A stretch of 64,000 nucleotides of DNA, taken from contig DNHS01000051.1 in assembly GCA_003485765.1 (NCBI GenBank), positions 2,314 to 66,313 on the forward strand. Reading direction: 5' to 3'. Source of the DNA: Candidatus Omnitrophota bacterium. Its GTDB lineage: Bacteria; Omnitrophota; Gorgyraeia; Gorgyraeales; Gorgyraeaceae. The position numbers and the translations under genes are program-made. This document shows, piece by piece, positions 6,888 to 64,000 of this stretch (position 1 is the stretch's first letter; the number at the start of each line of letters is the position of its first letter). The notes under the pieces were generated by a model, which saw nothing but the letters and a program-made list of their open reading frames with translations, made no database searches and was not told where the DNA came from.

Positions 6888-8720
6888 TCATTTTCTATTA
6901 GCTAATTTAAAACTCTCATCATCTAAAAACAGCGCGTATCCTGTGGCTTTATTCAGCTTTGCCAGAGACTGATACAAACTCCCAAGCGCCTCTACGTAAT
7001 AAGCCTTTTCATCTGTAAGGCTCATATAGGCTTGGATTAATTCTGAAAGCGATGCCTCATTTAATTCTGCGCGGGCTTTGATAATCTTAAATTCCTCTTC
7101 TTTATATTTAATCTTATTAAGATTTGTCATTATTTGGATTAAACCTTTTTTATAATTTAAATATGATTCTTTGACTTCTCTAACAATACTGTCTTTTACC
7201 TGCTCCAGCTCATCCTTTGCTTTTTTATACCCTATCTCCGCGGATTTTTCTTCAGAAAAATGTTGAAGCCCGTCCAATAGCCCGTATTCTACAGATTTAC
7301 TGATAGATTCTGTCCTTGTCGACTGACCATGTTTCTGGCTTGTCTTATCCTTCGTAAAGGTACTAGAAAGAGTATTCCCGCCCAATGGTTTTGACACCTT
7401 AAACCCTAGATACCAGTCATTCCCCAGAGTTAAGGGTTCGCTTTCATATGCGCCACCGGATTTCCCATATGTTCCGGTCAAGTCCACTCTAAGCTGATTC
7501 TTGCTCTCTGTAATCTTGCGCTCATAGTCATTAAATTCCAGCATATATGTTTTTGCCTTAAGATCTGGCCTGGATCTAAAGGCTAAATCCGCGCATTCTT
7601 CTAGAGTTACATCTACCACAATTGGCTCCAGGTCTTTTCCCGGCTCTTTATCTATTATCTCTATTGCTTTTTCTCCTCCCTTGGCATTAACTGCCTGCGC
7701 CAAAGTAAGTTTTGCCATAGCCAGTGTGTTCTCGCTCGATATAACCTGGTAATTTATCTGCTGCATTTGAGATTCTATCTGTAAAAATTCTGCCCTGGTA
7801 ATTAAGCCAAGCTCAAGCCTTTTCTTAGCTCCAGCGAATATACTGCTTGTCTCTTCTAAAAGCGCTTTGTGTAATTTTATATCCATCTTGCTGGCCATAT
7901 ATGCGTAAAATGCTGATTCCACCTCGGCTCTTAAATCCTGCAATGTCTTATCATAATTTGATGTAGACGCTTTAAGATTACTCATCGCCTGTTCAACTGC
8001 ATATTTAAGCCTCCACCCATAATACAATGGATACTCAAACTTAAGCTTGTATTCCTTATCTGTAAAATCCTGAGTTGTGCCGGCAGTCTTTCCTGTAGTC
8101 TCTAAATAATTCAAGGTTGCTGCTGGATAAAGGCCGCGCCTGGCTTCCCGTATCTTGAGTTTAGATAATTCTATTTCTTCCTGGGCTATTTTTGCAGCCA
8201 TATGATTTTCCAATGCTATGTCCACTGCGTCATTGATACCTAAATTTGTTACTTCTCGATTTGCGGAGTTTATCTCAAACGAAGTCAAGGGGCTCGCTCG
8301 AGAACTATCAATATCAAATATGATCGGCACATCTATCCACAAATCTTCACTCCCTAAAACCTCTGGAAATGGCTGGTATCTTTGATACATCCAAACTGTC
8401 TTTAAACATAAATTATCTAATTCTCTATTGTCAGAAGACTCAGAAATATACACATCCTTAAGTTCTCCCCAAGGAGAAAGAAAAAGCTTTAGCTTTACCT
8501 CGCCTTTTGAGCTATATAAAATAGAGGGATCTGGTTTTGGAATAGACCTATAAATATCTTTAGATATATCTATTATATATTGTGCTATCTCTTCTTGTGA
8601 TTGGCTATATGCAGATGATACGGTAGGATTTATTACTGTAACTACAATGAATACAAAGAAATATAATAATATGATACGCTTTATACGCATCCCTTCTCCT
8701 ATTTTTGAGAAGTATATCAT
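6888..8720 (-). CDS. TolC-like outer membrane efflux protein with an extra N-terminal domain of about 150 aa (TonB-C-like).
   Basis: It has a signal peptide, then GEVKLKLFLSPWGELKDVYISESSDNRELDNLCLKTVWMYQRYQPFP, which is similar to a TonB C-terminal domain. Two TolC/OEP repeats with long coiled coils follow. It is the first gene of the efflux operon. Confidence 0.7.
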   Translation of the reverse strand: MIYFSKIGEGMRIKRIILLYFFVFIVVTVINPTVSSAYSQSQEEIAQYIIDISKDIYRSIPKPDPSILYSSKGEVKLKLFLSPWGELKDVYISESSDNRELDNLCLKTVWMYQRYQPFPEVLGSEDLWIDVPIIFDIDSSRASPLTSFEINSANREVTNLGINDAVDIALENHMAAKIAQEEIELSKLKIREARRGLYPAATLNYLETTGKTAGTTQDFTDKEYKLKFEYPLYYGWRLKYAVEQAMSNLKASTSNYDKTLQDLRAEVESAFYAYMASKMDIKLHKALLEETSSIFAGAKKRLELGLITRAEFLQIESQMQQINYQVISSENTLAMAKLTLAQAVNAKGGEKAIEIIDKEPGKDLEPIVVDVTLEECADLAFRSRPDLKAKTYMLEFNDYERKITESKNQLRVDLTGTYGKSGGAYESEPLTLGNDWYLGFKVSKPLGGNTLSSTFTKDKTSQKHGQSTRTESISKSVEYGLLDGLQHFSEEKSAEIGYKKAKDELEQVKDSIVREVKESYLNYKKGLIQIMTNLNKIKYKEEEFKIIKARAELNEASLSELIQAYMSLTDEKAYYVEALGSLYQSLAKLNKATGYALFLDDESFKLANRK

Positions 8721-8784
8721 ATTATTATTATTTTGTCAAGAATGATACGGTTATGATACAGTAGGGAACAGGCATGCCTGTTCC

Positions 8785-10041
8785 CTACGCCTGCACAAAA
8801 ATATCTCTTATTACAACACTTGCTGCGCCTAATGCCACAGAATCTTCTCCAAGCTTTGCTGGTATTATTTTAACAACATTTGCAGGCTCTTCAAATGCCC
8901 ATTTTCTAACAGTCCTTCTTAAGGGCTCTAAAAGCAAACTACCAGCCTTTTCAATTCCTCCTCCAATAACCACTATCTCAGGATTAAATAAATTTACAAG
9001 ATACGCAATCCTTATTCCAAGATTCACAGCTCCATCTTCCAGGAGTTCTATTGCAAGAGTATCTCCTGCCTTTGCAGCTTCTATGATATGATCCACTGTA
9101 AGATTATCCAGTTTATTATCGCAGAATTCAAGTATCTTTGTCTTAACATCGTCTTCTTTTATAAGTTTCTTGACCTGGCTCACTAACCCTAAATCAAGCC
9201 CTGTAGGAAGAAGAAAAGAAATATTCTTTGAAACCTGCAGATATTCTTCGTTGCGCGGATAATTAATCCTTATCTCTCCTGCGCTGCCTGATGCTCCGGC
9301 ATACATGGCGCCTTTTATAATAATGCCGCTTCCTACATCGGAATACATGTAAATCACATCCTGTATATCCATAGGAAGAGCATGCATCTTTTCTCCGAAC
9401 GCAGCAAAAGTTGCGTCGTTACCTATAAAAGAAGGAAACCCAAATCTTTGTTCAATTATCCCTTTTATGGATACATAACTAGCCCTTATCCCATTCTTTG
9501 CAGAGTCCCTCACTGTGCCGAGATGTTCATCTATAATTCCGCTTACCCCTATACCAACACCTTTTATTTTATTTTTGTCCACGCCTTTCTTCTTTAACAA
9601 CTCATCTATTAGTTCAAGCGAAGCTTCTATAATCTTATCCATACTATCTTTTATTCTTACCTTTTTCACCTTGGTTACAATCCTTCCTGCAAGATCAGTC
9701 ACAAGGCCTATCATAGTTGTGCCAAAGACGTCCAAGTGGCCTAAATCAAGCCCTATTACATGCATACTATCATCATTTAATTTAACAACCGTGGGTTTCC
9801 TGCCTCCCGTAGAAACCTCCATACCCCCTTCTGAAACCAGTCCCTTATCAATATAACTATTTATATAATTAGAAACAGTCACTATGTTCAGGTCTGTAAC
9901 CTTTGAGATATCAGCTCTTGTAATAGGGCCATTTCTGCGTATGAGTTCAAGTATCGCAAAATTCTTTCTCTCGTGGTCTGAGAACATATAATTATCGTAC
10001 ATCCTGCCTTTCCTGATAGCCATACATGCCTCCTTGTCCAA
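8785..10041 (-). CDS. ROK family transcriptional regulator (N-terminal wHTH plus sugar-kinase-like fold).
   Basis: The N-terminal HTH is ELIRRNGPITRADISKVTDLNIVTVSNYINSYIDKGLV. The ROK kinase core includes the glycine-rich motifs GLDLGHLDVFGT and GSGIIIKGAMYAG. Confidence 0.8.
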   Translation of the reverse strand: MDKEACMAIRKGRMYDNYMFSDHERKNFAILELIRRNGPITRADISKVTDLNIVTVSNYINSYIDKGLVSEGGMEVSTGGRKPTVVKLNDDSMHVIGLDLGHLDVFGTTMIGLVTDLAGRIVTKVKKVRIKDSMDKIIEASLELIDELLKKKGVDKNKIKGVGIGVSGIIDEHLGTVRDSAKNGIRASYVSIKGIIEQRFGFPSFIGNDATFAAFGEKMHALPMDIQDVIYMYSDVGSGIIIKGAMYAGASGSAGEIRINYPRNEEYLQVSKNISFLLPTGLDLGLVSQVKKLIKEDDVKTKILEFCDNKLDNLTVDHIIEAAKAGDTLAIELLEDGAVNLGIRIAYLVNLFNPEIVVIGGGIEKAGSLLLEPLRRTVRKWAFEEPANVVKIIPAKLGEDSVALGAASVVIRDIFVQA

Positions 10042-56003: not shown

Positions 56004-56127
56004 TTACTGCCTCCTTTTTCAAGTGGTGCCGAGGAGAAGAGTCAATCTCTTCTCTCATATAAGTCATTATGTTATCATCGGTTTTAAACATTGTCAAGCC
56101 CCTCTTGGGACTTTAAGGGTACGATAA

Positions 56128-57240
56128 TTATTTGCCGTCTTTAATTTCCAAGGAAAATTTATCTTTGAATATCTTCTCCATGTAACTTTCTGATAGATGC
56201 TTATACTTTTCCATGGTCTTAGGATTCCTCCAGCCCCCTATCTTCTGTATCACATCTAAAGGAACCCCGAGTTGGCTACTTTGAGAAGCCCAGGTATGTC
56301 TTGTCTTATGTTGCATCTTCACGGGAACGCCTACAGACTCGCATATCTTCCTGAATTCTCTCCTGATGGAGTCCTGAGCAAGATAGTTACCAACTGAGTT
56401 AGTAAAGACCCACCTATCGTGTCCATGATGTAAGGCTTGTAATATACACATTAGCTCAGGTGCGATAGGAACATCTCTAATTTCCTTGTTCTTAACCCTG
56501 AAATAAAGGGTAGGGCTGACCTGCTTTGGTCTTATATAGATCCTGCCTCTGCTGAAATCTATATCATCCCATGTTAAAAATCTCAGCTCATTTCTTCTTA
56601 GTCCAGCATAGAATAAGGTAGCGAGAATAGCATGCCAGTTTATTGATTCACTAAGAGTCTTGGCTTTTTCAAGAATTAATTTTATCTCCTCTAAGCTATA
56701 AAAGAACTCGTCTGCGTCAGGCTCAGCAAAAGGCTTTACCTTCTTTTTGACTGGATTTTTTAATAAGAGGTCTCTCTCATCTATTAAATATTTAAACAAA
56801 CTACTTAGAGTGTCCCTTTCAAAATTAACTGTCCTAGGATGCCTCCCTTTTTCATCCAATCTATAACGCATGAATTCTGCGATGTGGTTGGACTGGATTT
56901 CGTCCAGATACTGCAAAGAAGGATATCTATCCTTTAAGAATTTCTTAAAATTATCCATGACAATGCGATACCTTATATAACTAACGGGACTTCCTAATTG
57001 TTTCTTCTTTGCCTCTAAGTAGGCCTCTATGCCTTGTTTAATCGTAACTCTATAAGAAGAGCAATTAGACTTTTTGCTTTTAAGCTGTCTAACGTAGTCG
57101 CCGTAATTAATGATAGCCTCTTCCCTTGTTTCACCAAGTTTAAGCCAGGACCTTGAGTTATCAGGATTAGTTACTCTAATTGCTAAATATTTTCCACGGC
57201 GTTTAGTTGGGAATTTTGGTATTCTTAATCGCTTTCTCAT
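56128..57240 (-). mobile_element. Tyrosine-type site-specific integrase (phage integrase family). It marks the left edge of the mobile/defence island.
   Basis: The C-terminal catalytic region is HKTRHTWASQ...IGGWRNPKTMEKYKH (R..H..R..Y). An N-terminal SAM-like region is present. Confidence 0.9.
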
Positions 57241-57428
57241 AATAGTTTAGTGTTTACTGAATTTACTAGATGCTCTGTGTTCCAGGCATCGAGATCCTGT
57301 TCCCTGAACCGAAGCAAGCCCCTTATCTTAAGATGAGGGATAAATTTTTTTGCTGTCCATTGATAGAGAGTCCAAAGCTTTATGCTGTATTTCTCGCATA
57401 CCTGCTCTGGAGTTAAAAGGGTGCTCAT
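57237..57428 (-). CDS. Excisionase/AlpA-like small HTH protein.
   Basis: LLTPEQVCEKYSIKLWTLYQWTAKKFIPHLKIRG has the AlpA/MerR-like excisionase pattern. It overlaps the integrase gene. Confidence 0.6.
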   Translation of the reverse strand: MSTLLTPEQVCEKYSIKLWTLYQWTAKKFIPHLKIRGLLRFREQDLDAWNTEHLVNSVNTKLL

Positions 57429-57649
57429 CGCTGTGCCCCTCCCTCTTCTAGAACATAGAACTCTTTGGGCTCCTTATTAAGCGCTATACCGAGCAAAACC
57501 AGAAAATGCCCGGATGGTGTAGATTTTCCGCTCTCCCACATTGACACCAACGGCCTGTCGACGTCAACTCTTGCAGCTAATTCTGCCATAGTGAGCCCTA
57601 ATTCTTTACGTCTAACTTTTAATCTTTCACCTTGCCATATTGCCTTCAT
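57425..57649 (-). CDS. XRE-family (Cro/CI-type) HTH regulator.
   Basis: LKVRRKELGLTMAELAARVDVDRPLVSMWESGKSTP matches the HTH_3 domain. Confidence 0.7.
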   Translation of the reverse strand: MKAIWQGERLKVRRKELGLTMAELAARVDVDRPLVSMWESGKSTPSGHFLVLLGIALNKEPKEFYVLEEGGAQR

Positions 57650-57891
57650 GATTACGCCTCCTTAATGTTATAGAATCGAACGTCTTGTTTAAGCCATTTC
57701 CAAAACTCAGAAGCAAAAGCATACAGTCTTTTACCCCCTTAAATATTATGCTCAATTTTCGGATAGACCTTTAATCAAAATTCAAAAAATATTTCTAATT
57801 TAACCTATTTATTTACAATGTCTTATAAAAGCAGACAAAAAAATATTTTTCGAGCTAATAACTAAATATCGCTTTAACTGTTGCTAAAAGT

Positions 57892-58374
57892 GTGCTATTA
57901 TACTCACTTATGGACAAGTGCTTACCTTGCCAAAAATGTCATAAACCAACTTCCTATATACGCCATGGGAAATTCGCTCTTAAAACTGGCAGACACGTGC
58001 AAAGAATTCGCTGTAAGAATTGTGGAAAGACATCCATTATTAGTTACTCGCCCTTTTTCTTTGACAGAATGCATACAGACCCAGAAAAATTTAACAAAGC
58101 TATGTCACTTTATAAAGAGGGTTACTCTATAAAAAGCATTGCCCTGCAACTTAAAATGCGACCAAATACGGTAATTGACTGGATTAAAAAAGTCAAACAG
58201 TATAAATACCTATATATAAGTTATCTAAAAAAATACCGTTCCTATAATTACCGTCAGGTTGCAGAATTCTTTAAAGATTTCAGCCGTCTTGCCAAAATAA
58301 AAAGAACAAAACAGCTTAAGCAATACAGGAAGAATCGGCCTGTGGAACCATCATCCTCCTTTGCACCCTCATAA
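57892..58374 (+). mobile_element. IS1-like InsA-type protein (zinc ribbon plus HTH); transposase N-terminal fragment.
   Basis: CLPCQKCHK...RHVQRIRCKNCGKTS is the zinc ribbon. The HTH is SLYKEGYSIKSIALQLKMRPNTVIDWIKK. No DDE domain follows. Confidence 0.45.
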
Positions 58375-59140
58375 ATAATCGCTTGCTCACTATCGACTCG
58401 TGCTTACCTCGACTTTTTATTTCGCCGAAAGTAGCCTCGCCATAATAAATCGTATTCCTTAATATATACTTCACAGACTCAATTTGAAAAGGCTTGCCTC
58501 GTCTTGTCAACATCCCACTCTTATTAAGATTTTCAGCGATTTTGGAGTAACTTAGTCCTTTAGCAGCCCAGCGAAATATCTTCTCCACGAATTCTGATTC
58601 CTTGGGGTTAATCTCCAACAGATCTCCTGTCTTCGAATACCCGAACGGTAAAGCACCACAGGCTTTCTTCCCATTCTCGGCAGATTCGATTCGCCCTTCG
58701 CGCAGACGAAAAACAATAAGTTCCTTTTCAAGTTGACTGAAGACATGGGTTATATTACGAAAGGCAACCTGCAGAGGGTCATTGGTATCAAGCTCGGGGT
58801 CTAACACAGAGCTAAGTTCTATATCATATTTCCTGAGTTGTGTCTCAATCCAAATAGCTGTAGTAATTTCACGAGCCAATCGGTCATGCCTAAAAACTAC
58901 TACCCTCTTAATCTTGCCTGTCTCACAATCCTTTAATAAACTGAGCAAAGCCGGTCTGTCTCTAACGGCTCCACTAACGCCTTTCTCCTCATAGAATCTT
59001 GCTAATTCAAATCCTTTCTCATTACAAAATTCAGTTATTCTCTTCTTTTGAATTGCAAGCCCTGCACCGTTTTCCACCTGATTCATACTACTGACTCTTA
59101 CATATCCAATAACAATACCTTCGGAATGCATAACAATCAC
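58316..59140 (-). mobile_element. Serine recombinase (resolvase/invertase N-terminal catalytic domain plus recombinase domain).
   Basis: The catalytic serine region is VIGYVRVSSMNQ. This is followed by GLAIQKKRITEFC...RVVVFRHDRLAR. Confidence 0.85.
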
Positions 59141-59348
59141 CTCCTAAACTATATAGATAACCATCGAGATTTTTGCTTGTCAAGAAAAAATGTATAAAAG
59201 TTTTAATCTTTTATGGGGTTTTACCGACGGAGAACAACTCTGAAATGATAAGCAGGGATTTACTAATTACTTATATCGATAGGATTTAGGCTAAAAAGGT
59301 AAAAGTTTTTTAGAGAAAACTTGAGGACTATTTTAAAAAATAGGTTAG

Positions 59349-59858
59349 TTACTTGGGGTTATCATAATGCTCACGAACTTCGTGCGCCCATTTCACAATA
59401 ACCTCATTCAATGCTTTCTTATTCTGCCTCGATAACTTACCCAGGGGCATTCGATGAATAAATAAGTCAGTAATACCTTTCTCAAAAATACCTCCTGAAA
59501 CATTATCTTCACAAAATACCAGAAGAGGCAATCTCAGAGCAAATAGTATACCAGCTTCTATTTGATTCCAAGGCGTAGGGAATGCTATAAGCTTATTCTG
59601 CTTCGATTGCGAACGTGTTCCCTTCTTCCACGTGCCTGTTTTGGTTTCAAATTGTGAAAAACCGAGAATAAGTCCTCCGGAACAGTGTTTGGCGAGAACG
59701 TGAACTTCATGTAAAGGACACTTAGTAGGATAGTCTGTTTGGCCTAAAGACCTCCATTCTAATTCTAAACGGTCTAATTGGCGAAAAATCATTTTCTTCG
59801 CTTCAAACTGGCGACTATTAATAAGCGTCGGACAAGAACCAAAAATAGGAATTCGCAT
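59349..59858 (-). CDS. Hypothetical protein, third gene of the TIR-SLATT cassette. It may be a nucleotide-sensing (SLOG-like) module.
   Basis: It is 169 aa, soluble and co-oriented with a 16-nt gap after the SLATT gene. The only weak similarity is GG-containing Rossmann-like segments (HCSGGLILGF, SGGIFEKG). Confidence 0.45.
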   Translation of the reverse strand: MRIPIFGSCPTLINSRQFEAKKMIFRQLDRLELEWRSLGQTDYPTKCPLHEVHVLAKHCSGGLILGFSQFETKTGTWKKGTRSQSKQNKLIAFPTPWNQIEAGILFALRLPLLVFCEDNVSGGIFEKGITDLFIHRMPLGKLSRQNKKALNEVIVKWAHEVREHYDNPK

Positions 59859-59874
59859 AGGTTACCCCGCTACT

Positions 59875-60375
59875 CTATTTGTCGGTAGTATCTTGCTTAC
59901 CACAAGAGGAAGCTATATCACCACCTTTATGACGAGAAAACCATCCAGTGCCTTCGCTTATTATCAACGCTTCTACTCTGTCTACAAATAAACACTTCTT
60001 ATCTGGTGCATTCCTGTATTCACCACAGTCTGCGTTATACCAATGAAGCTCATGCCCTAACGCATCCCATGTAGCCCTATAGCTAAGCCAATTTCCATAG
60101 CAACGAAAAAGAGACAGAAGGCCGGCCGCAAGAGCTACTGTTGGTGAAAGAATCGATACTATAACCTTGCCTCCAAATGTAAATGAACCAATTTTTATAA
60201 GAGAATCTGGCAAAAGATTCAGAATTGGAGTAACCGCTACGGAGACTACCAGAATATATGCCGAATAAAACCTATACCAAAACCTGCTACGATTAGCCTT
60301 GTCATCATAATACTTCATTATTTTACTGTAGCGGTCATCCTTATAAACAACAAATTCTTGGTCTGTCATAATCAC
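59875..60375 (-). CDS. SLATT-family (DUF4231-like) two-TM effector protein.
   Basis: Two hydrophobic helices (YILVVSVAVTPILNLL and IVSILSPTVALAAGLLSLF) are followed by NWLSYRATWDALGHELHWY. This matches the DUF4231/SLATT signature (NW.rYR..aE.L..E...Y). Confidence 0.6.
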   Translation of the reverse strand: MIMTDQEFVVYKDDRYSKIMKYYDDKANRSRFWYRFYSAYILVVSVAVTPILNLLPDSLIKIGSFTFGGKVIVSILSPTVALAAGLLSLFRCYGNWLSYRATWDALGHELHWYNADCGEYRNAPDKKCLFVDRVEALIISEGTGWFSRHKGGDIASSCGKQDTTDK

Positions 60376-60388
60376 CTCATTTTAAGAC

Positions 60389-60787
60389 TTATTGAGTTAG
60401 CTCTTCCATCTTCTTAACAATGGCACTTATATTCCACGTTAATCTTGGGTGTCCGTCCAAGGGTGCAGGATAATACTTTGTCCGACCGTCACTATAAAGA
60501 TTCACCCCCATAATAGGCTTACCCAGCTCTAGAGCTTTATTCAATTCCCATTCCACCCACTTACTCTTAGAAGTAGCTGGCCCATAAAGGCAAATTACAA
60601 GACTTGAATATTTTATCTGGTTCGTGATACCTCTGGCGATATAGTCGGAATTATTACTATCGAAGGGTTCCTTTATCGAATAATCATCGAATTCCAAATC
60701 AAGGTCTTCATTCTTAGCCTGCCCTCGAAAAAGATTGACGAGATTCAAGTCTTCTTCAACGAAACTTAAGAAAGCGCGTATTGCCAT
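60389..60787 (-). CDS. TIR-like domain protein (DUF1863/ThsB-like).
   Basis: The N-terminus is IRAFLSFVEEDLNLVNLFRG. The central region is SLVICLYGPATSKSKWVEWELNKALELGKPIMGVNL. It matches the MTH538 TIR-like flavodoxin-fold pattern. Confidence 0.6.
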   Translation of the reverse strand: MAIRAFLSFVEEDLNLVNLFRGQAKNEDLDLEFDDYSIKEPFDSNNSDYIARGITNQIKYSSLVICLYGPATSKSKWVEWELNKALELGKPIMGVNLYSDGRTKYYPAPLDGHPRLTWNISAIVKKMEELTQ

Positions 60788-60992
60788 AGTAACCTCCTTA
60801 TCAGATCTTTATTTATCGTTAAGCCTCACGGCAAATTTTAGAGGGGGCCTCGAAGCCCCACTTAACATATACACTTTAAGATGTATGTGAAAAAGGAGAA
60901 ACTCCCTCTGGTAAACCACTATAATTATAACAGCTACTCACTAATACCTCAATAATGAAAGTATTTAGATTGCTGTCTATACAATGACTTTG

Positions 60993-61060
60993 GAAATCCC
61001 AAAAGGTAAAATCCTTAACTAACCTAAAAAGTCCTTTGCTAAGTCAAACTAAAGCCAAAG
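60993..61060. repeat. Direct repeat A (about 65 bp), paired with repeat B at 62398-62462.
   Basis: AATCCCAAAAGGTAAAATCCTTAAC...TAAAAAGTCCT...CTAAGTCAAACTAAAGCC is about 88% identical to repeat B. It ends 5 nt before the ImmA stop codon. Confidence 0.7.
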
Positions 61061-61064
61061 ACAA

Positions 61065-61571
61065 CTACACTATTTTCAATTTTAACAACCTAATCCAAAG
61101 AGCATCTTTACTAACCCTATATAATTTAGCCACCTCTTCTACATTTCTTGTTTTCTGAAAGTCTCTCTTTAACATAAACAAAGGCATAAGAAGCTCCCCG
61201 GCAAAATAATTTGCTTCTTGCTCTTGAACTTTATTATGTTCTGAATCCGAAGCGTCAAATCTACCTTCTGATATTTCAGACATATCTACAAAAATATCCT
61301 TATAATGTCCTAACAAATAGTGACCTATCTCATGAGCAATAGAAAATCTTTGCCTATTAGGATGATGAGCGTTATTAACTCCTACAACTAGCATGTCGGA
61401 TTCTTTCAGGAGTATAGCAGATACTTTCTCAGGAAACGGATACGGAAGAAGGTTTATTCCTACGTGGGAAAGAATTTTATTAAGGTCAACTGGTGGAATA
61501 TCGGTTTTTGTTTCGCTTATAAGTTTCTGCGCAATTTTTGTGGCGTGTGAATATCGCGGCTTGTCAATCAT
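61065..61571 (-). CDS. ImmA/IrrE-family zinc metallopeptidase (COG2856; CapP-like).
   Basis: The HEXXH motif is AHEIGHYLLGH. The N-terminal region is typical of ImmA. It overlaps the upstream HTH gene by 4 nt. Confidence 0.8.
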   Translation of the reverse strand: MIDKPRYSHATKIAQKLISETKTDIPPVDLNKILSHVGINLLPYPFPEKVSAILLKESDMLVVGVNNAHHPNRQRFSIAHEIGHYLLGHYKDIFVDMSEISEGRFDASDSEHNKVQEQEANYFAGELLMPLFMLKRDFQKTRNVEEVAKLYRVSKDALWIRLLKLKIV

Positions 61572-61933
61572 TTAGTCTTTCCAAACTTCTTCTTCGCGAG
61601 CTCAGTAAAATCAAGGATACTTTTCTCTGTCTCCTTGTCCAATTTATCATAATTCGCCCTTAGCTTTATGGCGAATTCCTTAGGTTCAATCTGTGCAGTA
61701 GCTGCTTTTGGAAGAAAATCTTCAACTGTTTTATTCAGCACCTTGGCAATTTTTATCAGATCATCTATACTTACCTTTCTCGCCCCACTTTCAAAATAAG
61801 AAATTGCGGTAGCGCTATCCTTACCAATTAGTTCTGCAAGCTGAACTTGAGATAGTCCCTTTTGAAGCCTGAACTCTAAGACTTTCCTCCCTATAAAACT
61901 ATTTATCTGCTGGTCAATGTTCTCGTTCGCCAA
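61568..61933 (-). CDS. XRE-family HTH regulator (ImmR/CapH-like).
   Basis: The HTH_3 domain is KVLEFRLQKGLSQVQLAELIGKDSATAISYFESG. It is translationally coupled to the ImmA-like gene. Confidence 0.8.
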   Translation of the reverse strand: MANENIDQQINSFIGRKVLEFRLQKGLSQVQLAELIGKDSATAISYFESGARKVSIDDLIKIAKVLNKTVEDFLPKAATAQIEPKEFAIKLRANYDKLDKETEKSILDFTELAKKKFGKTK

Positions 61934-62009
61934 TCGAATCCTCCTTCAATTTAATAAAATGTTACCATTAAATTAAGCACATGTCAACACTTATTATTAA
62001 AAGAAACAC

Positions 62010-62037
62010 TTGACATCACTTACCAAAATGGTATAAT
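62010..62037 (+). promoter_or_regulatory. Strong sigma70-type promoter (TTGACA-16-TATAAT), divergent from the XRE gene. It is overlapped by the inverted repeat ATGTCAA...TTGACAT.
   Basis: The sequence is CTTGACATCACTTACCAAAATGGTATAATTG. The dyad ATGTCAACAC...CACTTGACAT at 61981-62016 is a candidate operator. Confidence 0.5.
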
Positions 62038-62193
62038 TGTATCGCACAAAAAGCAAACCCGCAAAGGCCCTTGGTGGGAGCTCTACTAAGGTTTGCTAAT
62101 GTGTTTCTTACGATTGATTTGATTTTATAATAGGCCTTAAGGAAAGTCAATACAATTTCCTCCCTTCCCACAAAACAAGAAAGGAGGAAAGCT

Positions 62194-62319
62194 ATGTCTA
62201 AGCCAAAGGGATATAAAATCGGGCGAGATGCCGGTTCAGGTCAGTTTATTCCAGTAAAAGAAGCTCAAACACGAAAGTCAACAGCCGTAGTTGAGGTAAT
62301 GCCCCGGAAGAAAAAATAA
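62194..62319 (+). CDS. Small basic ORF (41 aa, MSKPKGYKIGRDAGSGQFIPVKEAQTRKSTAVVEVMPRKKK).
   Basis: A perfect RBS (AAGGAGGAAAGCT) precedes the ATG. It lies downstream of the strong promoter and is followed by an intrinsic terminator. It falls below the ORF-track size cutoff. Confidence 0.4.
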   Translation: MSKPKGYKIGRDAGSGQFIPVKEAQTRKSTAVVEVMPRKKK

Positions 62320-62349
62320 TAGCTGTTAAAGACAAAGGTGATAAGCAGT

Positions 62350-62384
62350 AAACCCTCTGGTTCGAAAGAGCCAGAGGGTTTTTA
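62350..62384 (+). terminator. Rho-independent terminator.
   Basis: A stem AAACCCTCTGG/CCAGAGGGTTT is followed by T5. Confidence 0.6.
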
Positions 62385-62397
62385 GTGTAACATATAT

Positions 62398-62462
62398 TAT
62401 AATCCAAAAGGTAAAATCCTTAACCTATCTAAAAAGTCCTATACTAAGTTAAACTAAAGCCT
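62398..62462. repeat. Direct repeat B (partner of repeat A).
   Basis: AATCCAAAAGGTAAAATCCTTAACC...TAAAAAGTCCT...CTAAGTTAAACTAAAGCC. It ends about 25 nt before the stop of the GmrSD-like gene. Confidence 0.7.
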
Positions 62463-62485
62463 TACATAGCTACTTAACAAAAGGT

Positions 62486-64000
62486 TTACTCATCGCCATT
62501 ATCGACGTGCTTCTTGAACGCTTGCCTCACTAAAGCCATAACATCATCCAATTGACTGGTAGAACTCAGATGAACCTCCACATCTCCATTACCCCATCTA
62601 CCCAAGTTGGTCACGTCCTTACATAAGTTTTTAGGGTCAATGACTTCGTCAAATCGCATATTAAGCGCAAGTCTCAAACGGCTTTTCTGCGGCACCACAT
62701 CAACGAAATTAGTCGTGGTCTTATAAGCAATGTATAGCTTTAACATTTCTTCTTTAACCGAAGAATCTAAATTAAGCACATGCTTACGAAACTGCTCAAA
62801 CAGCTCTCGCATTTCCCCGGTTAGATGGGGGTAGTTATCAATTGTGTAAGTTTGTTCCTGTAAAATTTCTCGCTTACGATATTTAGTTAACACATCCTCC
62901 GACAATACCGGATACCCCCAAACTTGGGTAACAATTCCTGCTAATACCTGTGCGCGTTTTTGTATCTCCGCCTCATTCCATATAGACAAACTGGCTAAAT
63001 CTCTGTTGAGTCGAATAGGACTATCGGCAAAACCGCCTTTCATATTTCTTTTCTCAAGAAATGATTTATCGGAAAGTTCTGGGTTATAACCTGTTAAAGT
63101 TAAGTTACCGAGTGTATGTAAATAACGAGACTGAATATCTTTCCAATGCTCACCTAAATCCTTTCTCCATTCCGCTGATAGGTTAGGATTTTGCGGCATA
63201 ATATGCTCTGTAGTGTATCCTTCAGTATCAACCATTTCTTTACGGTTGTAATTTTCAAGTTTAAATAGCAGGTAATTTTTACTTCTAAAATTATAGACAT
63301 CTTTCACACCAAGCTCACGAATGAATTCACTATCATCGGGGAATCGCCGGTAAGAATCCTTTAAAAGAAGGGTTGCCTTAAAGCTCTCAAGATAATTTGT
63401 TTTATCCAATTCTCTACTAAGCGTAGCAAAGGTTTTGTTCAATGAGTTAGTAGGTATGCCACAGATTGCTCGGCGGAAGACATAGCTCTCAATTGACTTA
63501 AGAATCTCTATGAGCTCATCACGACTTATGCGCTTCTTCTTATAATCATCATAAGCCTCTAATATAAAAGGGTAGGCTACGTCGACTTTTAAAATATTTA
63601 TGTCACTAAACAACTCTCTCAGCTCCTCATCTGATTCCTTTTCAAGAGCTGTATTAACAAAATGCTTTGCGTAAACATAAATGTCGCCCACAATATCTTT
63701 TATTGATATAGTCCTATGTTCCTTCACATAAGCTTTAAATTCCTCATATACCTCATTAATCTTCGGAATACTGCCCGTCTTTATTGTCAAATAATCTCTC
63801 ATAAAACGGTCGAACTGAGTAACGTAGTCGATTTGACCAAATCCCTGCTCCATCTGAAACCAGTAATCGTTATAAAGAGATTCTTGCTCCTTTGGTTCAA
63901 GCCCCATCAAAACATAATTCCTTATTAAATCAGCTTGGCTTAACTCAAGTCCCGTTGAATTCAGGCTTTCAAAGATAAGCTGTGGGTTATCGTGGTCTCG
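62486..64000 (-). CDS. GmrSD-like type IV restriction endonuclease (DUF262 + DUF1524). The 5' end runs off the window.
   Basis: The DUF1524 HNH-like motifs are TEHIMPQNP and LHTLGNLTLTGYN. The reading frame stays open to the window edge, encoding ...QLIFESLNSTGLELSQADLIRNY, which matches the end of DUF262. Confidence 0.8.
   Translation of the reverse strand, partial: RDHDNPQLIFESLNSTGLELSQADLIRNYVLMGLEPKEQESLYNDYWFQMEQGFGQIDYVTQFDRFMRDYLTIKTGSIPKINEVYEEFKAYVKEHRTISIKDIVGDIYVYAKHFVNTALEKESDEELRELFSDINILKVDVAYPFILEAYDDYKKKRISRDELIEILKSIESYVFRRAICGIPTNSLNKTFATLSRELDKTNYLESFKATLLLKDSYRRFPDDSEFIRELGVKDVYNFRSKNYLLFKLENYNRKEMVDTEGYTTEHIMPQNPNLSAEWRKDLGEHWKDIQSRYLHTLGNLTLTGYNPELSDKSFLEKRNMKGGFADSPIRLNRDLASLSIWNEAEIQKRAQVLAGIVTQVWGYPVLSEDVLTKYRKREILQEQTYTIDNYPHLTGEMRELFEQFRKHVLNLDSSVKEEMLKLYIAYKTTTNFVDVVPQKSRLRLALNMRFDEVIDPKNLCKDVTNLGRWGNGDVEVHLSSTSQLDDVMALVRQAFKKHVDNGDE

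What the first reader, a model, noticed from the sequence alone, without database searches (positions are those of the whole stretch)
56128..64000. Integrase-bounded mobile/defence island appended to the purine operon
The island begins at a tyrosine integrase (R..H..R..Y catalytic residues) and extends to the window end. It carries, in order: an excisionase-like HTH, an XRE regulator, an IS1-like InsA fragment, a serine recombinase, the TIR-SLATT cassette with its XRE/ImmA regulators, a promoter with a small ORF, and a GmrSD-like DUF262/DUF1524 endonuclease. Everything left of 56.1 kb is core housekeeping (the pur operon). The right boundary and the attachment site are not in the window. No tRNA is adjacent, so the integration target is unclear.
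Basis: partly seen in the sequence, partly recalled or inferred. Interest (0 to 1): 0.55.

Follow-up and report, generated by a model that had tools for sequence, protein, structure and literature searches.

The report
Defence-carrying mobile element in tRNA-Phe
The flagged stretch is the left third of a 21-kb mobile DNA element that inserted into a phenylalanine tRNA gene of a groundwater Omnitrophota bacterium and carries three anti-virus defence systems: a clear-cut but ordinary kind of genomic island.

Summary
The window comes from a Candidatus Omnitrophota genome. In seven related species an intact tRNA-Phe(GAA) lies upstream of the conserved p238-purB-purC-purL block. In this genome only the last 17 nt of that tRNA remain, at 56024-56040, 87 nt from the integrase stop. 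A second perfect copy lies 21.3 kb to the right, at window-equivalent 77348-77364 on the extended contig. Between the two copies sits one integrative element, E1. It has three parts:
- Int/Xis/XRE, an InsA-like protein and a serine recombinase.
- About 10.5 kb of defence cargo: a CapH/CapP-regulated TIR-SLATT-p169 operon, GmrSD, and a type I R-M system.
- A replication module: family-A polymerase, two AAA+ proteins, DUF2958 and HD.

A second integrase-bearing element follows in tandem. Close relatives have the empty site. Another species carries the same element end, 437/438 nt identical up to the tRNA CCA. Related elements with the same backbone but different cargo abut tRNA-Ser or tRNA-Glu. 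GC content does not change at the boundary, but tetranucleotide usage does. This is a new member of a known kind. The one oddity is a family-specific 16-nt palindromic motif present five times in E1, at module junctions. The intact tRNA-Phe of this genome was not reached.

The parts
56024..56040 (-). Integrase-proximal att core. It is the last 17 nt of tRNA-Phe(GAA), TCTTCTCCTCGGCACCA on the minus strand, and marks the outer edge of the element.
   Evidence: A perfect 17-bp direct repeat lies at L065 17166-17182, window-equivalent 77348-77364. The same 17-mer is the 3' end of an intact tRNA-Phe in L006, L007, L008, L011, L012, L014 and L015. Identity to the element copy in another species (L016) drops from about 100% to about 78% exactly here.
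56041..56127 (-). Integrase-proximal att arm. It contains an outward-facing sigma-70-like promoter match at 56097-56069 (TTGACA-17-TAACAT, with TG) that points into p238-purB.
   Evidence: The arm is about 77% alike over 73 nt with the equivalent arm next to int2. The promoter match is and is a consensus match only.
56128..57240 (-). Tyrosine integrase Int1, 370 aa.
   Evidence: PF00589, 5.7e-26. XerC/XerA-like alignment with R215, H311, R314, W337 and Y346. NCBIfam integron-integrase score is 23 bits against a cutoff of 265.
57237..57428 (-). Excisionase-like HTH_17 protein, 63 aa. Its reading frame overlaps that of int1.
   Evidence: PF12728, 2.8e-10. It is 57% identical to the equivalent gene of the second element.
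57425..57649 (-). XRE-family regulator, 74 aa. A backbone gene.
   Evidence: PF01381, 5e-13. 65% identical in the related element L077.
57892..58374 (+). Zn-ribbon plus HTH protein, 160 aa. It resembles InsA / the IS1 transposase N-terminus, but it is a backbone gene and not an IS fragment.
   Evidence: Only HTH hits in Pfam. NCBIfam IS1 transposase N-terminal part, 32 bits against a cutoff of 100. 55% identical in L077.
58316..59140 (-). Serine recombinase, 274 aa, with Resolvase and Recombinase domains. A backbone gene that borders the cargo region.
   Evidence: PF00239, 1.4e-30, and PF07508, 4.6e-20. Matches the N-terminal half of CcrB-type large serine recombinases. 67% identical in L077. 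Present in L075, L085 and L087.
59349..59858 (-). p169, the third gene of the TIR-SLATT operon. It has a TIR / nucleoside-2-deoxyribosyltransferase-like fold.
   Evidence: No Pfam, PADLOC or PHROG hit. 733 relatives, some fused to TIR_2, DUF4231/SLATT or CHAT. AF2 pLDDT 95. Foldseek top hits are the SfSTING TIR domain, MilB CMP hydrolase, NDT and DNPH1.
59875..60375 (-). SLATT/DUF4231 two-TM effector.
   Evidence: PF14015, 3e-10. NCBIfam SLATT_1, 80 bits against a cutoff of 41.
60389..60787 (-). ThsB-type TIR protein, 132 aa.
   Evidence: PF08937, 6e-19. PADLOC ThsB models, best 1.8e-12.
60975..61062 (-). Copy 4 of an 88-nt intergenic repeat, with the 16-nt core AAGGATTTTACCTTTT at 61001-61016. 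It lies between capP-like and TIR, about 72 nt upstream of the -10 of a promoter match at 60952-60924.
61065..61571 (-). ImmA/IrrE M78 peptidase, CapP-like.
   Evidence: PF06114, 1.2e-24. PADLOC capP, 1.1e-30.
61568..61933 (-). XRE repressor, CapH-like, with its own promoter match at 61987-61959.
   Evidence: PF01381, 2.8e-12. PADLOC capH, 1.2e-12. Promoter match.
62010..62319 (+). Divergent perfect-consensus promoter (62010-62037), a leader of about 150 nt, and a 41-aa ORF (62194-62319) with an AAGGAGG ribosome-binding site.
   Evidence: Called as a gene in several independent assemblies. No family hit.
62380..62467 (-). Copy 3 of the 88-nt repeat, core at 62406-62421. It starts 19 nt after the gmrSD stop and is followed by a hairpin.
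62486..64000 (-). GmrSD-family type IV restriction enzyme, C-terminal 504 of 696 aa (GmrSD_C plus DUF5655). The N-terminal DUF262/GmrSD_N part lies beyond the window end.
   Evidence: PF07510, 1.4e-25, and PF18899, 6.5e-13. The ORF runs off the window. The full gene is on L001 at 7358-9448 and includes PF03235. PADLOC Orf5/HEC-06/mREase_IV hits.

Best explanation
Window 56024-64000 is the integrase-proximal third of E1, a 21.3-kb site-specific integrative element. E1 spans window-equivalent 56024-77364 and is inserted in the 3' end of the tRNA-Phe(GAA) gene of a Candidatus Omnitrophota bacterium.

**Shown**
- The element is bounded by two perfect copies of the last 17 nt of the tRNA.
- Closely related species have the uninterrupted site.
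- The same element end sits at the same site in another species.
- The element belongs to a family with a conserved backbone: XRE, InsA-like protein and serine recombinase at one end; p269, DUF2958, family-A polymerase, AAA+ and a 374-aa ATPase at the other. The end with the 374-aa ATPase gene always abuts an intact tRNA.
- Family members differ in their int/xis modules and tRNA targets, and in the defence cargo held between the serine recombinase and p269.

**Inferred**
- Int1, with the HTH_17 excisionase, recombines the element's att site with the tRNA 3' end. The element supplies a replacement 3' end plus a terminator, so the tRNA stays intact.
- After excision the element replicates as an episome using its own polymerase and ATPases.
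- The cargo protects the host and element against phage. The type I R-M system and GmrSD cut foreign DNA: unmodified DNA for the first, modified DNA for the second. The TIR-SLATT-p169 operon is kept off by the CapH-like repressor until the CapP-like peptidase removes it. The TIR then makes a nucleotide signal that opens the SLATT membrane effector.
- A second element with a 38%-identical integrase has used the same site, giving a tandem array.
For: **Extension of the contig**
- Exact-protein look-ups recovered the same genome on 183.6-kb and 120-kb contigs.

**Attachment site**
- A 17-bp perfect direct repeat lies at 56024-56040 and at L065 17166-17182 (E 3e-4 in 26 kb).
- The 17-mer is the 3' end of an intact tRNA-Phe in seven related Omnitrophota loci.

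**Empty site in relatives**
- Those loci, with PurB up to 94% identical, keep p238-purB-purC-purL but have none of the island genes.
- DNA similarity to them starts at window 56019-56043.

**Same element in another species**
- L016 is a different species (PurB 85.6%, flank about 78% identical). It is 437/438 nt identical across the integrase 3' end and arm, up to the CCA.

**Composition**
- Tetranucleotide distance from the 56-kb core rises to z = 3-7.5 across 56-78 kb. The core maximum is 2.2.

**Element family**
- L077 has the same order of genes, with a 24/26 direct repeat of the tRNA-Ser(CGA) 3' end.
- L085 abuts tRNA-Ser(GCT) and L086 abuts tRNA-Glu.
- Cargo differs: SIR2-STAND in L085, MTase+ResIII in L075, type I R-M in L087.

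**Right end of E1**
- The sequence just after the internal CCA carries a hairpin plus T-run.

**Gene functions**
-.
- TIR plus SLATT has been validated as type VII Thoeris with cADPR as the signal (bioRxiv 10.64898/2025.12.03.692087).
- CapH/CapP regulate many immune operons (PMC13228613 abstract).
Against: - The intact tRNA-Phe and the far end of the tandem array in this genome were not reached. ApbE homologues that I looked up belong to other genomes, and the protein needed for a further extension was not in the database.
- No excised circular junction was seen. No empty-site variant of this same strain was seen either: all 8 contigs carrying the exact p238 protein have int1 upstream. Present-day mobility is therefore inferred, not shown.
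- GC content does not differ between element and core: 0.390 against 0.395.
- Close relatives of Int1 are rare: one identical hit and one 56%-identical hit in JGI metagenomes, and none in IMG/VR.
- Replication and defence functions rest on domain homology only.
Confidence: 0.87

Rival explanations
1. E1 is a phage satellite or a cryptic prophage, not a plasmid-like integrative element. It would be induced by a helper phage and packaged, as PICI or P4-like elements are.
For: The layout resembles that of satellites: int/xis, XRE regulators and a replication module in 13-21 kb, with a defence-cargo hotspot. The polymerase, clamp-loader-like AAA, HD and p276 proteins hit PHROG families. The polymerase is about 30% identical to phage DNA polymerases I. 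The N-terminal HTH of p160 weakly matches terminase PHROG/Pfam models.
Against: None of the 23 E1 ORFs matches a capsid, portal, large-terminase ATPase/nuclease, tail or lysis family in Pfam or PHROGs. The p160 match covers only an HTH. Neither Int1, Int2 nor the polymerase has a relative in IMG/VR viral contigs.
Confidence: 0.12
2. The island is a fixed, no longer mobile remnant. It would be an old insertion whose integrase is retained but inactive, now functioning simply as a chromosomal defence island.
For: All 8 contigs with the exact p238 protein, from several metagenomes, carry the island. No circular junction or empty site of the same strain was found. GC content equals that of the host.
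Against: The int and xis ORFs are intact with catalytic residues present. The 17-bp repeats are perfect. The element end is 437/438 nt identical in a species whose flanking DNA is only about 78% identical, which implies recent transfer. Tetranucleotide usage is still foreign.
Confidence: 0.12
3. E1 and the second integrase-bearing element form one composite island, and the internal 17-mer is a chance or relic sequence rather than a boundary.
For: Only two att copies were seen, and the outermost one was not reached. Both elements have int, an HTH_17 gene and a serine recombinase.
Against: The internal copy lies 174 nt from the start of the 374-aa ATPase gene. This spacing matches that between the homologous gene and the intact tRNA in L077 and L085 (188 nt each). 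The arm next to int2 resembles the arm next to int1. L077 shows the backbone as a complete stand-alone 12.7-kb element.
Confidence: 0.04
4. The cargo region is a cassette array. The repeated 16-nt palindrome and its 88-nt context would be recombination sites at which the backbone serine recombinase captures or shuffles defence modules, in an integron-like manner.
For: - The strict motif occurs 5 times in E1, all in one orientation, and 0 times in 963 kb of other loci.
- The motif-bearing repeats begin about 1-19 nt after the stop codon of the preceding gene and separate the modules: polymerase | DUF2958 operon, hsdRMS | gmrSD | capH-capP | TIR operon.
- A serine recombinase borders the cargo in every family member.
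- The motif is conserved at the polymerase|DUF2958 junction in L077 and L086, and at the XRE|cargo junction in L075.
Against: - Family members other than E1 show only one copy each, despite multi-gene cargo.
- At the hsdR and TIR operons the motif lies 72-75 nt upstream of a TG-extended -10, which suits a regulatory site.
- No shuffled or permuted arrangement of the same modules was found.
- No significant secondary structure was detected.
- Int1 is not an integron integrase.
Confidence: 0.1

Closest known systems
tRNA-targeting integrative genomic islands and integrative plasmids driven by a tyrosine integrase (for example P4-type islands, or pSAM2-type actinomycete integrative elements that excise and replicate). 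Named from my own knowledge.
   Same: Tyrosine integrase plus excisionase. Integration into the 3' end of a tRNA gene, with duplication of the tRNA end as direct repeats. The element supplies a replacement 3' end. It carries its own replication genes. It is absent from sister species. Tandem accretion occurs at one att site.
   Different: The integrase sits at the end distal to the intact tRNA. The backbone (family-A polymerase domain only, two AAA+ ATPases, DUF2958, HD, p269, a truncated CcrB-like serine recombinase, an InsA-like protein) has no close counterpart in the phage or plasmid collections: at most about 30% identity. No relaxase, transfer gene or virion gene was detected.
Defence-system hotspots on mobile elements (P2/P4 prophage and satellite hotspots, PICIs, ICE hotspots). 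Named from my own knowledge. Mobile loci of Omnitrophota rich in R-M genes are reported in bioRxiv 10.64898/2026.06.07.730766.
   Same: There is one defined cargo slot between conserved backbone genes, filled with different defence systems in different family members: Thoeris-like + GmrSD + type I R-M, SIR2-STAND, MTase+ResIII, or type I R-M + DUF4268.
   Different: The host phylum and the backbone differ. E1 has a family-specific 16-nt motif at every cargo-module junction. No phage structural or packaging genes are present.
Type VII Thoeris (ThsB TIR + ThsH SLATT effector, cADPR signal; bioRxiv 10.64898/2025.12.03.692087) under CapH/CapP control (PMC13228613).
   Same: A ThsB-type TIR lies directly next to a SLATT two-TM protein. 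An XRE repressor and an M78 peptidase lie immediately upstream, in the CapH-CapP order.
   Different: A third co-oriented gene, p169, with a TIR/NDT-like fold, is part of the operon. The signal molecule, the trigger and CapP cleavage are untested. PADLOC's best non-ThsB match for the TIR is a candidate system, PDC-M50B.
GmrSD/BrxU-type type IV restriction enzymes, and type I R-M (HsdRMS).
   Same: GmrSD_N plus GmrSD_C domains. HsdR (ResIII, EcoEI_R_C), HsdM (N6_Mtase) and HsdS (Methylase_S) in one operon.
   Different: This GmrSD carries a C-terminal DUF5655 domain. The R-M genes lie outside the window.

Membership tests
Site-specific integrative element / genomic island at a tRNA gene | Tyrosine recombinase with the catalytic R...H-x-x-R...H/W...Y residues at one end | tested here: met
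   PF00589, 5.7e-26. R215, H311, R314, W337 and Y346 by alignment to XerC/XerA-like structures.
Site-specific integrative element / genomic island at a tRNA gene | Flanking direct repeats that are a duplication of the target (the tRNA 3' end) | tested here: met
   A 17/17 repeat at 56024-56040 and L065 17166-17182. It is identical to the 3' end of tRNA-Phe(GAA) in 7 related loci.
Site-specific integrative element / genomic island at a tRNA gene | Uninterrupted target site in related genomes | tested here: met
   L006, L007, L011, L012 and L015 have tRNA-Phe followed by p238-purB and no island gene.
Site-specific integrative element / genomic island at a tRNA gene | Intact (reconstituted) tRNA gene at the other end of the insertion in this genome | not testable with these tools
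   The far end of the tandem array lies beyond the 81 kb that could be fetched. It is shown for family members L077, L085 and L086.
Site-specific integrative element / genomic island at a tRNA gene | Excision to a circular form (attP junction) | not testable with these tools
   Read-level data are not available. No circular or empty-site contig was found among those fetched.
Site-specific integrative element / genomic island at a tRNA gene | Composition distinct from the host | tested here: inconclusive
   The tetranucleotide signature departs from the core (z = 3-7.5), but GC is equal: 0.390 against 0.395.
Prophage | Capsid, portal, terminase, tail or lysis genes | tested here: not met
   No such Pfam or PHROG hit among the E1 ORFs. 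The only match is an HTH-only match of p160 to terminase models.
ICE / IME | Relaxase, coupling protein or type IV secretion genes | tested here: not met
   None among the Pfam hits of the E1 ORFs. Three ORFs (p269, p113, p276) remain without any domain.
Integron | IntI-type integrase, divergent from an array of attC-bounded cassettes | tested here: not met
   NCBIfam integron integrase scores 23 bits against a cutoff of 265. int1 is co-oriented with the cargo and lies downstream of it. The repeats show no significant structure.
IS1 (InsA fragment) | Match to the IS1 InsA/transposase models, with an IS1 DDE part or inverted repeats nearby | tested here: not met
   No Pfam IS1 hit at E<=10. NCBIfam IS1 scores 32 bits against a cutoff of 100 and covers the N-terminal part only. 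The gene is conserved at 55% identity at the same backbone position in L077.
Type VII Thoeris | ThsB-type TIR gene adjacent to a SLATT-domain membrane effector | tested here: met
   PF08937, 6e-19. NCBIfam SLATT_1, 80 bits against a cutoff of 41. The two genes are 13 nt apart on the same strand.
Type VII Thoeris | Phage-triggered cADPR production that activates the effector | not testable with these tools
   This is a biochemical property. It is known for validated systems only.
CapH/CapP regulator pair | XRE repressor followed by an M78 (ImmA/IrrE) peptidase, upstream of an immune operon | tested here: met
   PADLOC capH, 1.2e-12, and capP, 1.1e-30. The two ORFs overlap, and they lie directly upstream of the TIR operon.
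GmrSD type IV restriction | DUF262 (GmrSD_N) plus DUF1524 (GmrSD_C) in one protein | tested here: met
   GmrSD_C in the window. GmrSD_N is on the full 696-aa gene of the extended contig.

The most novel reading that the evidence does not exclude
E1 may represent an undescribed family of self-replicating, tRNA-integrating elements of Omnitrophota that act as dedicated carriers of defence cassettes. On this reading the family-specific 16-nt palindrome (AAGGATTTTACCTTTT) marks the polymerase|DUF2958 junction in three members and all five module junctions in E1. It would be the site at which the backbone serine recombinase, or the InsA-like protein, captures and stacks new defence modules. That would be a cassette-capture system analogous to integrons but built on a serine recombinase.
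Probability: 0.1. Interest if true: 0.75.

Novelty: new member of a known kind. Interest (0 to 1): 0.33.

Why it matters
- It gives a fully delimited example of how defence systems move between Omnitrophota species. The target, boundaries, backbone and cargo slot are all defined. This phylum is known almost only from metagenomes, and its mobile elements are only starting to be catalogued.
- The family offers natural comparators: the same backbone with different tRNA targets and different defence cargo. These are useful for defence-system discovery. Examples are p169 as a recurrent TIR/SLATT/CHAT partner, and the unannotated genes in the cargo slots of L075, L085 and L087.
- It also gives a candidate regulatory or recombination motif that can be tested directly.
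- For genome annotation, it shows that 'no tRNA adjacent' can hide a 17-nt tRNA remnant that identifies the integration target.

Tried and rejected
1. **Far end of the array.** ApbE lies next to tRNA-Phe in relatives, so I searched for ApbE homologues. None sat on the 183.6-kb or 120-kb contigs. The two I looked up (P0156, P0140) belong to other, island-free genomes. A search with the last visible gene of the second element returned only a 46% homologue.
2. **Episomal or viral copies.** Int1, Int2 and the polymerase have no relatives in IMG/VR. The repeat motif is absent there too. L078 looked as if it might be a circular contig, but it is an exact sub-stretch of the integrated L077 copy that ends in tRNA-Ser repeats.
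3. **Structured RNA in the 88-nt repeats.** Folding z-scores ranged from -1.4 to +0.7, which is not significant. Rfam finds only three unrelated tRNAs in the window.
4. **Repeats as sigma-70 promoters in their own right.** They contain no good consensus match. The good promoter matches lie downstream of them.
5. **Integron reading of int1.** Rejected by the NCBIfam score.
6. **GC break at 56.1 kb.** There is none.
7. **p238 as part of the island.** Rejected. It is conserved next to purB in 10 related loci at 83-96% identity.

Full report
**What is in the window.**

- Tyrosine integrase, 56128-57240.
- HTH_17 excisionase-like gene, 57237-57428.
- XRE, 57425-57649.
- Serine recombinase with Resolvase and Recombinase domains, 58316-59140.
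- An unannotated 169-aa gene, p169, 59349-59858.
- SLATT/DUF4231, 59875-60375.
- ThsB-type TIR, 60389-60787.
- ImmA/M78 peptidase, 61065-61571.
- XRE, 61568-61933.
- The C-terminal 504 aa of a GmrSD enzyme, which runs off the window end.

On the plus strand there are two further ORFs. One is a 160-aa Zn-ribbon/HTH ORF (57892-58374). The other is a 41-aa ORF (62194-62319) behind a perfect TTGACA-16-TATAAT promoter.

The integrase has R215, H311-x-x-R314, W337 and Y346. PADLOC's best hits for the peptidase and the XRE are capP and capH. There is no intact tRNA or other Rfam family nearby.

**Extending the contig and naming the organism.**

The exact CapH-like protein is encoded on a 183.6-kb ENA contig and on a 120-kb Rifle groundwater scaffold, both colinear with the window. 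A second look-up extended the sequence to window-equivalent 80989 (window = L065 + 60182, checked). To the right of the window come these genes:
- The rest of gmrSD (696 aa, including GmrSD_N).
- A type I R-M operon, hsdS-hsdM-hsdR.
- An unannotated 269-aa gene on the other strand.
- Two small unknown genes, an HD hydrolase and DUF2958.
- A 420-aa family-A DNA polymerase domain.
- A clamp-loader-like AAA+ protein.
- A 374-aa ATPase.

After these come a 111-aa ORF, a second tyrosine integrase (38% identical to the first), another HTH_17 gene and another resolvase.

A PurB search of species-representative genomes places the window in Candidatus Omnitrophota. The nearest genomes have 94% identical PurB and about 92-93% DNA identity across the pur region.

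**The empty site and the target.**

Ten related loci keep p238-purB-purC-purL. None has any island gene upstream of p238. DNA similarity to them begins at window 56019-56043.

A short-word search of the integrase-p238 spacer against the extended sequence found one outstanding match. It is a perfect 17-mer at 56024-56040 and at window-equivalent 77348-77364. The same 17-mer occurs once in each related locus. There it is the 3' end, through CCA, of an intact tRNA-Phe(GAA). Where the upstream region was examined (L006, L007, L011, L012, L014), that tRNA lies between apbE and p238.

The element therefore integrated into the tRNA-Phe 3' end.

The left boundary is confirmed independently by L016. 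This contig comes from a different species (PurB 85.6%). It is 437/438 nt identical to the window from inside int1 to the CCA. Beyond that point identity falls to about 78% in p238. This is the signature of recent horizontal transfer of the same element into the same site.

**One element, then another.**

The internal 17-mer lies 174 nt from the start of the 374-aa ATPase gene. On the element side it is followed by a hairpin plus T-run, which would terminate a reconstituted tRNA. The arm next to it on the int2 side is about 77% identical to the arm next to int1.

The layout, in tRNA orientation, is therefore: [tRNA-Phe, not reached] - E2 (int2 ...) - att - E1 (21.3 kb) - att - p238-purB.

**A family with a cargo slot.**

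Homologues of the 269-aa protein (135 at E<=1e-3) led to related elements.

L077 is complete. Reading in locus order, its parts are:
1. An att fragment.
2. Int, XRE and HTH_17.
3. An InsA-like gene and the serine recombinase.
4. A helicase as cargo.
5. XRE, p269 and an MBL-fold protein.
6. DUF2958, the polymerase, the AAA+ protein and a 375-aa ATPase.
7. An intact tRNA-Ser(CGA).

It has a 24/26 direct repeat of the tRNA-Ser 3' end.

Backbone proteins are 55-76% identical to those of E1, but the int/xis module is unrelated. L085 abuts tRNA-Ser(GCT) and L086 abuts tRNA-Glu(TTC).

The slot between the serine recombinase and p269 holds different content in each member:
- L085: SIR2-STAND plus methyltransferases.
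- L075: MTase + ResIII + DUF4145.
- L087: type I R-M plus DUF4268 and an ORC/Cdc6-like gene.
- E1: three systems, TIR-SLATT-p169 with CapH/CapP, GmrSD and type I R-M.

No virion or conjugation genes were detected. The polymerase and the 374-aa ATPase have only about 30% identity to anything in the phage or plasmid collections.

**Composition.**

GC content is the same inside and outside the element (0.390 against 0.395). The tetranucleotide distance from the 56-kb core rises to z = 3-7.5 between 56 and 78 kb, against a core maximum of 2.2. AT skew also shifts near 57.5 kb.

**Cargo mechanism (inferred).**

TIR next to SLATT has been validated as type VII Thoeris, with canonical cADPR as the signal. 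CapH/CapP pairs de-repress immune operons.

p169 has 733 relatives. In some of them the domain is fused to TIR_2, SLATT or CHAT domains. A confident model (pLDDT 95) resembles TIR domains and NDT / CMP-hydrolase enzymes. It is probably a second signal-producing or signal-processing component. I did not test that.

**The unexplained motif.**

An 88-nt intergenic repeat has three long copies and two short ones. Its invariant 16-nt core is AAGGATTTTACCTTTT, a palindrome of the form AAGG-N6-CCTT. The core occurs five times in E1, always in the coding orientation. It does not occur in the other 56 kb of the window or in 963 kb of other fetched loci.

The repeats start about 1-19 nt after a stop codon and separate the modules. 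A near-identical core sits at the polymerase|DUF2958 junction in L077 and L086, and at the XRE|cargo junction in L075.

At the hsdR and TIR operons the core lies 72-75 nt upstream of a TG-extended -10. This favours a shared regulatory site. A recombination role cannot be excluded.

**Limits.**

- The intact tRNA-Phe of this genome and the far end of E2 were not reached.
- No excised form or same-strain empty site was seen.
- All functions are inferred from homology.

**Verdict.**

This is a well-delimited tRNA-integrating element carrying defence systems. It is a new member of a known kind and of moderate interest.

Noticed in passing
window 60975-61062 and 62380-62467 (cores 61001-61016 and 62406-62421); further copies at L065 4433-4448, 9795-9810 and 13585-13600: An 88-nt intergenic repeat with an invariant 16-nt palindromic core, AAGGATTTTACCTTTT. 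It occurs five times in the element at module junctions. It is absent from the rest of the window and from 963 kb of other loci. It is conserved in related elements L075, L077 and L086. Its function is unknown; it could be an operator or a recombination site.
   Followed up: partly
window 59349-59858 (-): p169 is the third gene of the TIR-SLATT operon. It has no family hit but 733 relatives, and in some of those the domain is fused to TIR_2, SLATT/DUF4231 or CHAT. A confident AF2 model has a TIR / nucleoside-deoxyribosyltransferase / CMP-hydrolase-like fold. It may make this a three-component variant of type VII Thoeris.
   Followed up: partly
L065 17183-20807 (window-equivalent 77365-80989): A second integrative element lies in tandem at the same att site. 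It has a 111-aa ORF, Int2 (38% identical to Int1), an HTH_17 gene (57% identical to that of E1), a resolvase and an HTH_17-domain protein. Its far end and cargo were not seen.
   Followed up: partly
L016 1-438 (JAUYDX010000092.1): A different Omnitrophota species (PurB 85.6% identical) carries the same integrase 3' end and att arm, 437/438 nt identical, at the same tRNA-Phe/p238 junction. This implies recent inter-species transfer.
   Followed up: yes
window 56069-56097 (-): A sigma-70-like promoter match (TTGACA-17-TAACAT, TG-extended) lies inside the element's att arm and points out of the element into p238-purB. In relatives p238 starts 8-20 nt after the tRNA-Phe CCA, so the insertion cut p238 off from its native upstream region. 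The element may supply replacement transcription.
   Followed up: no
L014 3068-7425; L006 8293-9231; L066 8038-10133: The interval downstream of tRNA-Phe is variable even without an integrase. L014 has 4.4 kb of radical-SAM, glycosyltransferase and methyltransferase genes. L006 has a 218-aa membrane ORF. L066 has a trpD-like gene and no p238. No second att copy is present in these.
   Followed up: partly
window 62010-62380 (+): A 41-aa ORF (MSKPKGYKIGRDAGSGQFIPVKEAQTRKSTAVVEVMPRKKK) has a perfect consensus promoter, a leader of about 150 nt, a strong ribosome-binding site and a terminator hairpin shared with gmrSD. It is divergent from the CapH-like repressor. It has no family hit and its role is unknown.
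   Followed up: no
L077 3991-5505 versus window 56128-57428: Within the element family the int/xis module is swapped wholesale: there is no detectable similarity, while the rest of the backbone stays 55-76% identical. The swap goes with a change of tRNA target (Phe, Ser-CGA, Ser-GCT, Glu).
   Followed up: partly
L065 9998-10807 (+) (window-equivalent 70180-70989): p269 is a conserved backbone protein with 135 homologues and no Pfam, PHROG or NCBIfam hit. It is always on the strand opposite to its neighbours, at the edge of the cargo slot. Read by eye only, it has a possible D...E-x-K nuclease-like motif (YDMVVL...AAIEFKL).
   Followed up: no
window 57000-58500: AT skew shifts from about -0.13 to about 0 near 57.5 kb and stays near 0 through the island. 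GC content and GC skew do not change.
   Followed up: no
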